A stretch of 1,421 nucleotides of DNA. It comes from Naegleria gruberi. Its lineage: Eukaryota. This document shows positions 1 to 1,421 of the stretch, in pieces. Numbering within the stretch: the first letter of the stretch is position 1; every line of letters begins with the position of its first letter. The notes under the pieces were generated by a model. That model was not told where the DNA came from. It saw only the letters and a list, made by a program, of their open reading frames with translations, and did no database searches. Position numbers and translations under genes: made by a program. The DNA lies in assembly GCA_000004985.1 (NCBI GenBank), contig GG739428.1, one strand, 5' to 3'.

Positions 1-380
1 AATTTGATTATAAATATAGTGACTTTCGGAATTCACTTTTTTTACATTCGATTTAGACGATTTAATGGTAGTATAATTGAGTATACAGGTCTATTATAAA
101 GAATATATTGGGTAGAAACGGGTTAATTTTTTTAATCGATTTTATGCATATATTACAAGAGGAATATAATGTTTTACAGTATTTGGTTATTTTAAAATCG
201 GCTAGAAATGAAGTGAGGACAAAAATTTTAAAAAATTTCAGTCAAAAATATGGTCATATTTATCAGTAAACTATATCTTGTGGATTTATATATTAATAGA
301 TTTTTCGTTTTTGACACCTCTATTGTAAACACTATAAGATTATTTATTTATAGTTATTTCCATATCTACTTTCGAGTTCA
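1..380. other. AT-rich intergenic (non-transcribed?) spacer, about 25% G+C
   Basis: Hand count of 1-60 gives 15/60 G+C. It contains A/T tracts and an A-tract palindrome, aaaattttaaaaaattt, at about 221-238. There is no ORF longer than a few dozen codons and no rRNA- or tRNA-like conservation. Confidence 0.5.
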
Positions 381-410
381 TCGACCCCCCCGAAATGTCT
401 GAACTTCAGT
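360..410 (+). promoter_or_regulatory. Candidate RNA polymerase I core promoter / transcription start region at the AT-to-GC composition boundary (speculative)
   Basis: This is inference only. A sharp boundary (C7 run at 385-391) is followed by the 11-bp palindrome ctgaacttcag (399-409) and aggatcct (430-437), about 870 bp upstream of 18S. Pol I promoters are lineage-specific, so no consensus can be matched by eye. Confidence 0.15.
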
Positions 411-616
411 TCCTAACCTTGCGGACAGCAGGATCCTAAGGGATTACCCTCATCGAGGGTATCAACGCCCTTCGGAGCCCCCAATGGGTCAACCACCCGT
501 TGGGGCCTGCTGTTCACACCGGGGGTCGGTAACCCTCCCCGCCTGATGAAGGGCGGTGGGCACCCCCAGCCCTTGCGGCTGGGAGCCAAGGCAGCGCGTA
601 ACTGCGGGGCGCTGCT

Positions 617-683
617 AACCAACCAACCAAACCTGACCCGCCACCAGCCAACCAGCCCACCAGCCAGCCAACCACCAGCCACG
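617..683. repeat. Low-complexity C/A-rich microsatellite-like tract: (AACC)n followed by degenerate CCAGCC(A/C)A repeats
   Basis: Directly seen: aaccaaccaaccaaacc at 617-633, then ccaccagccaaccagcccaccagccagccaaccaccagccacg at about 641-683. This stretch contains almost no T on the + strand. Confidence 0.7.
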
Positions 684-898
684 CGCCCTCTGGCCCACCC
701 AGGCCACGCGTGCGGTCGAGGCACCCTACAGCCAGCCGGCAGAACCCACGGCCATTCCCACGGCCAACGGTCCAACCCGCTGCCAGTCCTGACCCCAGGG
801 CTGTCCAGGGAGCCTCCCGCGTGTGTGACCCGGGAGCCTAGGAGGGCCCCCCAACCGTCCGGCCCAACCGCTGCCCCTGGGGCCGATTCAGATACCTC

Positions 899-992
899 AA
901 CCGCAGCCTTTTGGGCTGCCCACAGCCAAACCGCAGCCTTTTGGGCTGCCCAGATCCTACCAGCCTACCACCGCAGCCCTTTGGGCTGCCCT
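899..992. repeat. Tandem array of 3 hairpin-forming repeats with core CCGCAGCC(T/C)TTTGGGCTGCCC
   Basis: Directly seen: the core occurs at 901-922, 931-952 and 971-992 (ccgcagccttttgggctgccc twice, then ccgcagccctttgggctgccc). Start-to-start spacing is 30, 30 and 40 bp. Copies 1 and 2 extend to near-identical 30-mers, aaccgcagccttttgggctgccca(c/g)a. Each core is an inverted repeat, GCAGCC-ttttg-GGCTGC, with a 6-bp stem. Confidence 0.8.
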
Positions 993-1060
993 ACCACCAC
1001 AGCCAGCGAAGCCTGGACCGAGGGGAAACCCTTGACCCGGGACGAGCCAGCTGTTTTTCA

Positions 1061-1257
1061 ATATTGATTACCCGCATTAAGCGGGAAACCCTCGCAAGAG
1101 GAACCCCATACCTCAGAGACCCAAACGATTCATTCGTTTAGGCTCAAATCGAGTTCATAATGGCAAACGGATGGATAGCCAGTAGGTGGTGCAAACCAAC
1201 GAACGCTTGAAATCCAACCGGAGCGCAAACAAGGTAAAACTCGTTTTGCTCCAGTGA
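1061..1257 (+). other. 18S-proximal 5' external transcribed spacer (5' ETS)
   Basis: It lies immediately upstream of, and is contiguous with, the mature 18S 5' end at 1258. Composition is mixed and stop codons are present in all frames. It contains a perfect hairpin, cccgc-attaa-gcggg, at 1071-1085. Its function is inferred from position; no transcript data are available. Confidence 0.6.
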
Positions 1258-1421
1258 TACCTGGTTGATCCTGCCAGTACTATATGCTTGTCTCAAAGCC
1301 TAAGCCATGCAAATGTAAGATCAATCATATGCGGTTTCGGCCGTGTATAATGATAGTCTGTGGAAGGCTCATTATAACAGTTATACTCCTAGCCACTGGA
1401 AAGTTTACAAGGATACCACCG
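1258..1421 (+). rRNA. Nuclear small-subunit (18S-type) rRNA gene, 5' end only (partial; the gene continues past the window end)
   Basis: Directly seen: 1258-1278 tacctggttgatcctgccagt is the universal eukaryotic SSU 5' terminus. It is followed by tatgcttgtctcaaag (the U3 box-A pairing region, conserved), gccatgca, ggctcattataacagttat and aaggata. An archaeal SSU would start attccggttgatcctgccgga and a bacterial one agagtttgatcctggctcag, so this is eukaryotic nuclear. Several otherwise conserved positions are substituted, for example agtactatatgc instead of AGTAGTCATATGC and aaagcctaagcc instead of AAAGATTAAGCC. Confidence 0.9.

What the first reader, a model, noticed from the sequence alone, without database searches (positions are those of the whole stretch)
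899..992. Three tandem copies of a 22-nt self-complementary element just upstream of the 18S gene
The core CCGCAGCC(T/C)TTTGGGCTGCCC recurs three times in 94 bp. Each copy can fold as a 6-bp GC-rich stem, GCAGCC/GGCTGC, with a T-rich loop. Tandemly repeated, structured elements in rDNA spacers are classically Pol I enhancers or spacer promoters, Pol I terminator or fork-barrier protein-binding sites, or ETS processing and snoRNA-docking sites. The third copy has a C in place of a T in the loop and a longer spacer, which suggests ongoing repeat turnover. Taken as DNA, each unit is also a near-perfect palindrome that could bind a dimeric factor.
Basis: seen in the sequence. Interest (0 to 1): 0.55.

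Follow-up and report, generated by a model that had tools for sequence, protein, structure and literature searches.

The report
Repeated RNA hairpins in Naegleria rDNA leader
Three near-identical 21-base hairpin units lie in the GC-rich leader ahead of the 18S rRNA gene of a Naegleria-type circular rDNA plasmid; they most likely fold as stem-loops in the pre-rRNA leader, with copy number changed by small local duplications, which is an ordinary kind of rDNA spacer feature.

Summary
CCGCAGCCYTTTGGGCTGCCC occurs at 901-921, 931-951 and 971-991 (0 of 200 shuffles give any match), and each copy folds as a 7-bp hairpin (-11.6 to -13.3 kcal/mol).

The window comes from a Naegleria-type circular extrachromosomal rDNA element. 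It runs from AT-rich spacer (1-370), through a conserved promoter-like block at a sharp AT-to-GC boundary (310-434) and a GC-rich, CAGCC-rich variable tract, to a conserved 250-nt core (1003-1257) and the 18S gene (1258 onward).

Relatives recovered from metagenomes carry one or two hairpins at the same distance from the 18S gene, about 285-320 nt upstream. Their GCAGCC/GGCTGC stems are the same, but the loops differ (UUCG, GCAA, UCUG). The apical pair varies C-G / U·G / U-A, and the spacing between the half-sites varies. This pattern fits selection on an RNA hairpin, not on a DNA protein-binding site.

Copy number is 3 here and 2 in the closest relatives. Neighbouring short repeats also change copy number between otherwise identical elements.

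Best reading: these are transcribed 5'-ETS stem-loops, an ancestral hairpin pair with one recent extra copy made by slippage. The enhancer, terminator and fork-barrier readings are not supported. The transcription start has not been mapped, so the claim that the array is transcribed is an inference. Interest is low to moderate.

The parts
901..921 (+). Hairpin unit, copy 1. Stem 903-909 / 913-919 (GCAGCCU / GGGCUGC), loop UUU, apical U·G pair.
   Evidence: Exact pattern match. RNA fold -11.6 kcal/mol, z = -3.3. Falls inside the window 836-912 segment that has no counterpart in L009, and is identical to copy 2 over 24 nt, so it is probably the most recent duplicate.
931..951 (+). Hairpin unit, copy 2. 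Stem 933-939 / 943-949. Counterpart of the first hairpin of L009 (CCGCAGCCTTTTGGGCTGCC).
971..991 (+). Hairpin unit, copy 3. Stem 973-979 / 983-989 with an apical C-G pair. Its position is conserved: the stem starts 285 nt upstream of the 18S gene.
   Evidence: Fold -13.3 kcal/mol, z = -3.8. Fuzzy matches to the unit start 288-290 nt upstream of the 18S gene in the window, L009 and L006/L007/L016/L017. RNAalifold includes this hairpin in the consensus structure (columns 24-35).
866..885 (+). Degenerate fourth unit (AACCGCTGCCCCTGGGGCCG), 33 nt before copy 1. It forms only a weak hairpin.
   Evidence: Member of family D1 (868-885). Fold -5.7 kcal/mol, no better than shuffles.
952..970 (+). Linker between copies 2 and 3. 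It contains the 8-nt micro-duplication TCCTACCA/GCCTACCA that makes this spacing 40 nt rather than 30.
   Evidence: Direct reading of the window-versus-L009 alignment.
564..583 (+). Related upstream hairpin of the same CAGCC...GGCTG type (CCCAGCC-CUUGC-GGCUGGG).
   Evidence: Reference copy of family D1. Fold -14.4 kcal/mol.
310..434 (+). Conserved block at the AT-to-GC boundary: TTTGAC (310-315), TCGACCCCCC (381-390) and CCTTGCGGACAGCAGGAT (417-434). Candidate Pol I promoter and start of the transcribed leader. This is an inference; the start site is not mapped.
   Evidence: TTTGAC-N(55-75)-TCRACCC occurs once in the window (0 of 200 shuffles). It also occurs once each, on the sense strand at the same boundary, in L002, L009, L016, L017 and L018.
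381..1257 (+). Inferred 5' external transcribed spacer: GC 56-73% between about 400 and 1100, C-rich, with CAGCC over-represented, and strongly structured.
   Evidence: Composition profile. MFE -366.9 kcal/mol against -309.5 for shuffles, z = -6.7. CAGCC occurs 14 times against 2.5 expected.
1003..1257 (+). Conserved 3' core of the leader, with helices that covary among relatives. Likely site of processing and processome docking (inferred).
   Evidence: Alignments. Window 1046-1257 is 80% identical to the sequence upstream of the N. fowleri TY 18S gene.
1258..1421 (+). 5' end of the 18S rRNA gene.
   Evidence: Rfam RF01960, 101.1 bits, E = 1e-27.

Best explanation
The window is the region upstream of the 18S gene on a Naegleria-type circular extrachromosomal rDNA element (CERE). 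RNA polymerase I most likely starts at the conserved block on the sharp AT-to-GC boundary, at about window 360-390. If so, the three units are transcribed as part of an ~880-nt 5' external transcribed spacer.

In the nascent pre-rRNA each unit folds into a short GC-rich stem-loop of 7 bp, set among unstructured C/A-rich CCAGCC linkers. A pair of such hairpins immediately 5' of the conserved 250-nt core is ancestral in this clade and is kept as RNA structure. It probably serves as a passive structural or spacer helix module of the leader that scaffolds early small-subunit assembly, and it is discarded with the spacer.

The window's lineage gained one extra, still identical, copy and an 8-nt linker duplication through replication slippage or unequal exchange in a low-complexity tract. 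Homogenisation across the roughly 4000 plasmid copies then fixed the change.

Shown: the repeat, its folding, its fixed position, the loop and closing-pair changes in relatives, and the copy-number differences. Inferred: transcription of this region, selection on the structure, and the scaffold role.
For: Taxon and setting. Relatives found through an 18S signature carry the GIR1 twin-ribozyme intron. ITS1 is 33 nt in L018 (18S ends at 10085, 5.8S starts at 10119). The 14.1-kb contig L002 has overlapping LSU ends, which indicates a circle. Published N. fowleri CERE primers match the relatives exactly (primers from PMC13398248). Window 1046-1257 is 80% identical (E = 5e-48) to the sequence upstream of the 18S gene of N. 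fowleri TY, and the GC architecture is the same.

Position. All relatives share the same layout: AT-rich spacer, a sharp boundary, a GC-rich block of variable length (400-1400 nt), a conserved core, then 18S. A conserved bipartite motif sits once per element at that boundary.

RNA-level signature. Hairpins at the same place are GCAGCCC-UCUG-GGGCUGC in L009, GCAGCCC-UUCG-GGGCUGC and GCAGCCU-UUCG-AGGCUGC in L016, GCAGCCC-GCAA-GGGCAGC in L018, GCUGG-UUUU-CCAGC in L008 and AUACGGCC-UUCG-GGCCGUAU in L002. The apical pair therefore runs C-G / U·G / U-A. In the variable tract there are 5 UUCG/GNRA-capped hairpins on the sense strand and 0 on the antisense strand. Shuffles give a mean of 0.53 and 0 of 300 reach 5. 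Four of the five lie 281-317 nt upstream of the 18S gene, which is the array position.

Specificity. GCAGCC-N(3-7)-GGCTGC occurs only at this position in about 150 kb of related elements. The full unit is absent from IMG/VR. It has only 2 single hits in 596 Gb of prokaryotic genomes, which I estimate to be about the chance expectation.

Turnover. There are 3 copies here against 2 in relatives. L016 and L017 are 100% identical over 2700 nt but differ by 2 versus 3 copies of an adjacent 18-20-nt repeat.

Structure. The whole leader folds far better than shuffles, z = -6.7.
Against: The transcription start has not been mapped for any Naegleria CERE, according to the papers I could read, so the claim that the array is transcribed rests on inference.

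Stem pairs 1-6 are invariant among the GCAGCC-type hairpins. True covariation is therefore limited to the apical pair, plus wholesale stem replacement in the more distant L008 and L002, whose homology rests on position only.

The 131-nt array region as a whole folds only marginally better than shuffles, z = -1.7.

CAGCC is 5-11 times over-represented throughout the tract, so a single inverted GGCTG is enough to create a hairpin without any selection.

The variable tract ranges from 400 to 1400 nt among relatives, so most of it is dispensable.

The window's own loops (UUU) are not special tetraloops.

No second copy from the same organism was available to check the count of three.
Confidence: 0.6

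Rival explanations
1. Neutral by-product. The tract is a slippage-prone CCAGCC low-complexity region. Hairpins arise whenever an inverted GGCTG appears and are duplicated by slippage. Neither the structure nor the copy number is under selection, whether or not the region is transcribed.
For: CAGCC is 5-11 times over-represented in every related leader. The tract length varies from 400 to 1400 nt. Copy number changes quickly between near-identical elements. Stem pairs 1-6 show no covariation. The array region folds at z = -1.7 only.
Against: A hairpin is kept at a fixed distance from the 18S gene across lineages whose surrounding sequence no longer aligns. Those hairpins are capped by UUCG/GNRA tetraloops on the sense strand only, 5 versus 0, with 0 of 300 shuffles reaching that count. 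The apical pair shows the series C-G / U·G / U-A.
Confidence: 0.2
2. The pre-rRNA starts further downstream, near the highly conserved AT-rich element at about 1054-1075. The GC-rich block and its repeats would then be upstream spacer DNA acting as Pol I enhancer-like or upstream-promoter repeats.
For: Strong sequence conservation begins only at about 1003-1010. TTTTTCAATATTGATTACC is almost invariant across all relatives, including N. fowleri. No transcription start has been mapped.
Against: Sense-strand-specific RNA tetraloops and the closing-pair series lie upstream of 1003. A second conserved block sits exactly at the AT-to-GC boundary, once per element. The repeat sequence itself is not conserved in the more distant relatives L008, L002, L005 or in N. 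fowleri. The repeats have no similarity to either candidate promoter.
Confidence: 0.1
3. DNA-level palindromic binding sites for a dimeric factor, acting as a Pol I terminator, a replication-fork barrier or a pause site.
For: Each unit is a near-perfect palindrome, and both DNA strands can form hairpins of -6.9 to -8.3 kcal/mol. The GCAGCC/GGCTGC half-sites are conserved in the window, L009, L016 and L018.
Against: The half-site spacing changes from 5 to 6 bp, and the centre is replaced by UUCG or GCAA. One half-site is mutated in L018 (GGGCAGC). The element is absent from L008, L002, L005 and N. fowleri, which have unrelated stems at that place. The location is inside the inferred transcription unit, on the 18S side. 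It is not downstream of the 28S gene and not just upstream of the promoter.
Confidence: 0.05
4. Specific pre-rRNA processing or U3/snoRNA docking element: an A'- or A0-like cleavage site, or a hinge-pairing site, present in three copies.
For: The array sits immediately 5' of the conserved core, where docking and cleavage sites are expected by analogy with yeast and vertebrates (PMC3239212 and PMC3130255 abstracts). The CCGCAGCC 5' arm is conserved in four lineages.
Against: Docking sites need to be single-stranded, whereas these sequences are locked in stable self-complementary stems. The copy number varies. The sequence is absent from other Naegleria lineages. No Naegleria U3 sequence was available to test for complementarity.
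Confidence: 0.04
5. Part of a protein-coding gene: the ORF at 546-1067 on the + strand (173 aa) reads through all three copies.
For: The ORF exists. An unexplained ORF upstream of the 18S gene is annotated in the N. gruberi EGB CERE (PMC5805870).
Against: There is no Pfam match. The 30-nt and 40-nt spacings put copy 3 in a different reading frame from copies 1 and 2. L009 differs by indels that are not multiples of 3, and its ORF reads the hairpins in another frame. Stop-poor GC-rich sequence produces such ORFs by chance.
Confidence: 0.01

Closest known systems
Short direct repeats in the GC-rich tract upstream of the 18S gene in published Naegleria CEREs (for example the 35-bp and 85-bp direct repeats mapped in N. 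fowleri LEE, MT741533; PMC7714845)
   Same: Same genetic element and same zone. N. fowleri TY carries about 6 tandem copies of GACCCAGCCAGACCCTTCCATTGCAGCGAACC in the corresponding GC-rich block. They are CAGCC-rich and have been catalogued only as repeats, with no assigned function.
   Different: The unit sequence is different, and the N. fowleri units are not self-complementary hairpins. Published annotation treats the whole region as 'non-ribosomal sequence' and not as a transcribed leader. That the 35-bp and 85-bp repeats of the LEE map are the ones seen in the TY sequence is my own inference.
Direct-repeat motifs E-H in the 1,483-bp ETS of the Didymium iridis extrachromosomal rDNA (PMC13182076)
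   Same: Short direct repeats in 2-5 copies inside the external transcribed spacer of a protist extrachromosomal rDNA. The copies are similar but not identical, and their function is unknown.
   Different: The organism is unrelated (Amoebozoa) and the rDNA is a linear chromosome. In Didymium the transcription start was mapped by RNA reads, and two repeat types give enriched ETS RNAs. None of this has been tested for the window.
Helices of the yeast and vertebrate 5' ETS that scaffold the small-subunit processome, with U3 hinge pairing sites between them
   Same: A series of stem-loops ahead of a conserved 3' part of the leader. The role of such helices is structural, and the sequence is poorly conserved while the helices persist. 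This comparison rests on general knowledge, plus the abstracts of PMC3239212 and PMC3130255 seen.
   Different: There is no sequence homology. No protein or U3 contacts are known for Naegleria. The hairpins here are much shorter and are repeated.
Pol I enhancer or spacer-promoter repeats (Xenopus 60/81-bp elements, Drosophila 240-bp repeats) and Sal-box/Reb1-type terminators
   Different: They lie in the non-transcribed spacer upstream of the gene promoter or downstream of the 28S gene. They resemble the promoter or bind a defined factor, and they are not defined by RNA hairpin conservation. Here the array lies downstream of the promoter-like block, does not resemble it, and shows RNA-type variation.

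Membership tests
Naegleria-type circular extrachromosomal rDNA element (CERE) | Sequence homology of the region flanking the rRNA genes to a named Naegleria CERE | tested here: met
   Window 1046-1257 is 80% identical over 218 nt (E = 5e-48) to the sequence immediately upstream of the 18S gene in the N. fowleri TY CERE (supplement S1 of PMC13398248).
Naegleria-type circular extrachromosomal rDNA element (CERE) | A single rDNA unit on a circle of about 14-16 kb | tested here: inconclusive
   This cannot be tested on a 1.4-kb window. Relative L002 (14,161 nt) has the LSU 3' end at one contig end and the LSU 5' part at the other, overlapping at model positions 2895-3021, which is consistent with a circle.
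Naegleria-type circular extrachromosomal rDNA element (CERE) | Genus hallmarks in relatives: GIR1 twin-ribozyme intron in the 18S gene, a 33-nt ITS1, and genus primer sites | tested here: met
   GIR1 is present in L009 and L002. In L018 the 18S ends at 10085 and the 5.8S starts at 10119. GAACCTGCGTAGGGATCATTT and the LSU-start primer match 9-13 loci exactly.
5' external transcribed spacer of the Pol I pre-rRNA | Lies between the mapped transcription start and the 18S 5' end, on the sense strand | not testable with these tools
   The array is on the sense strand, 267-357 nt upstream of the 18S gene. No start site is mapped in any CERE paper I could read. A conserved promoter-like block at 310-434 is only a candidate.
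5' external transcribed spacer of the Pol I pre-rRNA | Evidence of selection on RNA structure on the sense strand | tested here: met
   UUCG/GNRA-capped hairpins number 5 on the sense strand and 0 on the antisense strand in the variable tract, and 0 of 300 shuffles reach 5. The apical pair runs C-G / U·G / U-A. The leader folds at z = -6.7. The core has covarying helices.
5' external transcribed spacer of the Pol I pre-rRNA | U3 snoRNA hinge-complementary sites and A0/A1-type cleavage sites | not testable with these tools
   No Naegleria U3 sequence or RNA-end data were available.
Pol I enhancer or spacer-promoter repeats | Located in the spacer upstream of the gene promoter | tested here: not met
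   The array is about 520-610 nt downstream of the only conserved promoter-like block and inside the GC-rich block that continues to the 18S gene. This depends on the inferred promoter.
Pol I enhancer or spacer-promoter repeats | Sequence similarity to the gene promoter, or conservation as a DNA motif among relatives | tested here: not met
   The unit shares no repeat family with 310-434. It is absent from L008, L002, L005 and N. fowleri.
Pol I terminator or replication-fork barrier site | Positioned downstream of the 28S gene or immediately upstream of the promoter, with a conserved protein-binding motif | tested here: not met
   The position is wrong. The GCAGCC...GGCTGC motif is found nowhere else in about 150 kb of related CEREs, including the regions downstream of the 28S gene. 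Protein binding itself cannot be tested here.
Dimeric-factor DNA palindrome | Fixed half-site spacing and conserved half-sites | tested here: not met
   The spacing between GCAGCC and GGCTGC is 5 nt in the window and in the first L009 hairpin, but 6 nt in the second L009 hairpin and in L016. One half-site is mutated in L018.
Dispersed generic repeat | Many copies at unrelated loci | tested here: inconclusive
   There are 0 hits in IMG/VR, 2 single hits in 596 Gb of prokaryotic genomes (about chance by my estimate), and no copies elsewhere in related CEREs. The organism's own nuclear genome could not be searched.
Variable-copy short tandem repeat in rDNA transcribed spacers | Copy number differs among close relatives or among units | tested here: met
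   There are 3 copies in the window and 2 in L009 and in L006/L007/L016/L017. A neighbouring repeat has 2, 3 or at least 4 copies in 99.8-100% identical elements.

The most novel reading that the evidence does not exclude
The hairpin array may be more than passive structure. It could be a lineage-specific functional module of the Naegleria pre-rRNA leader. One possibility is a multivalent binding platform for a processome or other RNA-binding protein whose dosage is tuned by copy number. Another is a source of stable small ETS-derived RNAs, as reported for two ETS repeat types in Didymium (PMC13182076). Together with the conserved TTTGAC...TCGACCCCCC block, it would give the first defined Pol I promoter and leader architecture for the CERE of the genus that includes the brain-eating amoeba.
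Probability: 0.1. Interest if true: 0.5.

Novelty: new member of a known kind. Interest (0 to 1): 0.25.

Why it matters
The array itself is a routine finding. Transcribed rDNA spacers in many eukaryotes carry short, fast-evolving repeats and small hairpins, so this one adds an example, not a principle.

Its value lies in the context. Published descriptions of Naegleria rDNA plasmids treat everything outside the 18S-28S region as 'non-ribosomal sequence', and they state that the signals for rRNA transcription are unknown. The comparison made here suggests a more specific layout: a promoter-like block, a variable C-rich leader with a conserved hairpin pair, and a conserved 250-nt core. That layout can be tested directly.

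It would also be useful to groups trying to turn the plasmid into a transfection vector, or to target ribosome synthesis in N. fowleri. In addition, the variable tract could serve as a strain-level marker.

Tried and rejected
- Tandem Repeats Finder does not report the array; it lists only the CCAGCC-type microsatellite at 617-681. The repeat was confirmed by pattern search and the repeat finder instead.
- An Rfam scan of the window at E <= 1 found nothing except the 18S gene.
- IMG/VR scans with the repeat and with an 18S signature both returned nothing.
- The prokaryotic genome scan gave 2 single hits, L022 and L023, which I estimate to be about chance. This collection cannot address the organism's own nuclear genome.
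- MAFFT alignment of the isolated hairpins (A1) put 3-nt-loop and 4-nt-loop copies out of register. I therefore did not run the pair-counting tool on it and read the pairs directly from the sequences.
- My first promoter alignment (A2) used wrong coordinates for the reverse-strand loci and should be ignored. It was redone correctly.
- A coding explanation was rejected: no Pfam hit and the reading frame is not conserved.
- Clark & Cross 1987 (PMC367933) is not held. The 2021 Plasmid review (Nguyen et al., cited) did not turn up in the searches. No paper on Naegleria pre-rRNA 5' ends was found.
- A possible homology between GCAGC...GCUGC here and GCGGC...GCCGC at a similar position in L005, L008 and N. 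fowleri (an A-U to G-C swap) was noticed. I did not count it as covariation because the alignment there is not reliable.
Full report
**1. The observation**

The window contains CCGCAGCCYTTTGGGCTGCCC exactly three times, at 901-921, 931-951 and 971-991. There are no further matches even with 3 mismatches allowed, and none in 200 dinucleotide-preserving shuffles.

The repeat finder describes the array as a 30-nt unit at 899-928, 929-958 and 969-998, with 100/90/73% identity and spacings of 30 and 40 nt (family D3). A degenerate fourth unit lies at 866-885, and a related hairpin lies at 564-583 (family D1). TRF misses the array.

Each unit folds alone as RNA into a 7-bp stem with a UUU loop, at -11.6, -11.6 and -13.3 kcal/mol and z between -2.7 and -3.8. 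As DNA the stems give -6.9 to -8.3 kcal/mol on either strand.

The T-to-C difference in copy 3 is the apical closing pair, U·G changing to C-G. It is not a loop position. The longer spacer before copy 3 comes from an 8-nt micro-duplication, TCCTACCA-GCCTACCA, which is single in the closest relative. Because the units are self-complementary, copies 1 and 2 can also pair with each other in the MFE fold. The 131-nt region as a whole is only marginally more stable than shuffles, z = -1.7.

**2. What the locus is**

The 18S rRNA gene begins at 1258 (Rfam RF01960, E = 1e-27). The composition falls into four parts:
- 22-25% GC up to about 350;
- a sharp rise at about 370-400;
- 56-73% GC with a strong excess of C over G between about 400 and 1100;
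- 44-47% GC up to the 18S gene.

One metagenome scan with a lineage-specific 18S signature returned 21 loci. Several lines of evidence identify the clade as Naegleria:
- Two relatives carry the GIR1 branching ribozyme inside the 18S gene.
- ITS1 is 33 nt in L018.
- The 14.1-kb contig L002 has overlapping LSU ends, as a circle would.
- Published N. fowleri CERE primers match the relatives exactly (primers from PMC13398248).
- The N. fowleri TY CERE sequence printed in that paper's supplement aligns to window 1046-1257 at 80% identity (E = 5e-48) and shows the same GC architecture.

The window is therefore the region upstream of the 18S gene on a Naegleria-type circular extrachromosomal rDNA element. 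The species could not be named.

**3. Anatomy of the upstream region in the clade**

All Naegleria-type relatives share one plan. An AT-rich spacer gives way at a sharp boundary to a GC-rich block of variable length: about 400 nt in L009, about 700 in the window, L016, L002 and L008, and about 1400 in L018. A conserved block of about 250 nt then abuts the 18S gene.

At the boundary there is a conserved bipartite signature, TTTGAC-N(55-75)-TCRACCC. It occurs exactly once per element, on the sense strand, in the window (310-387; 0 of 200 shuffles) and in L002, L009, L016, L017 and L018. About 30 nt further on lies CCTTGCGGACAGCAAGAT (window 417-434). I read this block as the candidate Pol I promoter and the start of the leader. 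This is an inference. The CERE papers I could read give no mapped start and say the transcription signals are unknown.

The GC-rich block is a low-complexity tract in which CAGCC is 5-11 times over-represented. The whole 883-nt leader folds much better than shuffles, z = -6.7. The 3' core contains helices with compensatory changes.

**4. The hairpins in relatives**

Fuzzy matches to the unit start 288-290 nt upstream of the 18S gene in the window (copy 3), in L009 and in L006/L007/L016/L017.

| Locus | Hairpin(s) at the array position |
|---|---|
| L009 | GCAGCC-UUUUG-GGCUGC and GCAGCCC-UCUG-GGGCUGC |
| L006/L007/L016/L017 | GCAGCCC-UUCG-GGGCUGC and GCAGCCU-UUCG-AGGCUGC, 30 nt apart |
| L018 | GCAGCCC-GCAA-GGGCAGC |
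| L008 | GCUGG-UUUU-CCAGC (unrelated stem) |
| L002 | AUACGGCC-UUCG-GGCCGUAU (unrelated stem) |

Three features of the comparison matter. The stem core is kept in four lineages. The apical pair runs C-G / U·G / U-A. The loops are swapped for the RNA-stabilising tetraloops UUCG and GNRA.

Across seven non-redundant leaders, the variable tract holds 5 UUCG/GNRA-capped hairpins on the sense strand and none on the antisense strand. Shuffles give a mean of 0.53, and 0 of 300 reach 5. Four of the five lie 281-317 nt upstream of the 18S gene.

The distance between the two palindrome halves changes from 5 to 6 nt. An RNA hairpin tolerates that easily; a dimeric DNA-binding site usually does not.

GCAGCC-N(3-7)-GGCTGC occurs nowhere else in about 150 kb of related elements. 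The 21-nt unit is absent from IMG/VR and has only 2 single hits in 596 Gb of prokaryotic genomes, which I estimate to be about chance.

**5. Turnover**

The window has three good copies, whereas L009 and the L016 group have two. Copy 1 is identical to copy 2 over 24 nt and lies in a segment with no counterpart in L009, so it looks like the most recent duplicate.

In the L016 group an 18-20-nt repeat just upstream of the hairpins is present 2, 3 or at least 4 times in elements that are otherwise 99.8-100% identical over 2700 nt. N. fowleri has its own unit of about 32-35 nt repeated about 6 times in the same zone. These are probably the 35-bp and 85-bp direct repeats mapped in strain LEE (PMC7714845). 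Contigs L001 and L010 end within a few bases of the array's 3' edge, as often happens when assemblies meet repeats.

**6. Explanation and rivals**

Best supported (confidence about 0.6): the units are transcribed as part of an ~880-nt 5' ETS and fold co-transcriptionally into short GC-rich stem-loops between unstructured C/A-rich linkers. A pair of such hairpins just 5' of the conserved core is ancestral and is kept as RNA structure, probably as a passive helix module of the leader. The third copy and the linker duplication are recent slippage products that were homogenised across the multicopy plasmid.

Rivals:
- A purely neutral by-product of the CAGCC-rich tract (about 0.2).
- A transcription start downstream, near 1054-1075, which would make the repeats upstream DNA elements (about 0.1).
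- DNA palindromes for a terminator, fork-barrier or dimeric factor (about 0.05).
- A U3-docking or cleavage site (about 0.04).
- Coding sequence (about 0.01). The ORF at 546-1067 has no Pfam hit and its frame is not conserved.

**7. Comparison with known systems and verdict**

The nearest known things are the uncharacterised short direct repeats catalogued next to the 18S gene in Naegleria CEREs (PMC7714845) and the ETS repeat motifs of the Didymium extrachromosomal rDNA, two of which give enriched ETS RNAs of unknown role (PMC13182076). By analogy only, the helices of yeast and vertebrate 5' ETS are also comparable.

The array fails the tests I could apply for enhancer or spacer-promoter repeats, for terminators or fork barriers, and for a fixed-spacing DNA palindrome. 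It meets those for a variable-copy repeat in a structured rDNA leader. Its membership of the 'transcribed spacer' class remains to be proven by mapping the start site.

This is a new member of a known kind and of modest interest (0.25). The more useful by-product is a testable promoter, leader and core layout for the Naegleria rDNA plasmid.

Noticed in passing
window 310-434; also L002, L009, L016, L017, L018 at their AT-to-GC boundaries: A conserved bipartite signature, TTTGAC-N(55-75)-TCRACCC(CCC), followed about 30 nt later by CCTTGCGGACAGCAAGAT. It occurs once per element, on the sense strand, exactly where AT-rich spacer turns into the GC-rich block. It is a candidate Pol I promoter and leader start for Naegleria CEREs, whose transcription signals are described as unknown. 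L008, L005 and N. fowleri lack it; L005 and N. fowleri show TTTTCTACCTATAGGTG at their boundary instead.
   Followed up: partly
window 1003-1257: A 250-nt block abutting the 18S gene that is highly conserved across all relatives and 80% identical to N. fowleri. It includes the nearly invariant TTTTCAATATYGATTACC and GNRA-capped helices (CCUC-GCAA-GAGG and others), with compensatory changes in several helices. It is probably the processing and processome-docking core of the leader.
   Followed up: partly
window 546-1067 (+): A 173-aa ORF spans the repeats. It has no Pfam match and its frame is not kept in L009. [quoted passage not shown]
   Followed up: yes
window 617-681, and the GC-rich blocks of L002, L008, L009, L016, L018: A CCAGCC/CCAACC microsatellite-like tract. 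CAGCC is 5-11 times over-represented in the leader of all Naegleria-type relatives except the N. fowleri-like L005. The sense strand has a strong excess of C over G.
   Followed up: partly
L016 oriented 1029-1064, L017 oriented 3874-3927, L006 5-80, L007 51-126: An 18-20-nt repeat, CAGACCCTTCCACCAGCC, is present 2, 3 or at least 4 times in elements that are 99.8-100% identical over 2700 nt. This is direct evidence of rapid copy-number change in this zone. The motif CAGACCCTTCCA is also part of the N. fowleri repeats.
   Followed up: yes
L009 8337-8533; L002 5720-5917 (-): GIR1 branching ribozymes (twin-ribozyme group I introns) lie inside the 18S genes of two relatives. The window ends before that position.
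   Followed up: no
L001 and L010 contig ends, equivalent to window 996-1000: Two independent metagenome contigs from close relatives (93-96% identity) stop within a few bases of the 3' edge of the hairpin array. This is probably assembly breakage at the repeat or GC-rich tract.
   Followed up: no
window 372-381 and 1149-1158: The exact 10-mer TCGAGTTCAT occurs both at the AT-to-GC boundary and inside the conserved core (family D19). I estimate that one such 10-mer coincidence is about what chance gives in 1.4 kb, so I did not pursue it.
   Followed up: no
L005 oriented 1329-1341, L008 1729-1741, N. fowleri TY about 270 nt upstream of the 18S gene: A hairpin GCGGC-N(2-3)-GCCGC lies at a similar distance from the 18S gene in the N. 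fowleri-like lineages. If it is homologous to GCAGC...GCUGC here, pair 3 shows an A-U to G-C compensatory change. The alignment is too uncertain to count this.
   Followed up: partly
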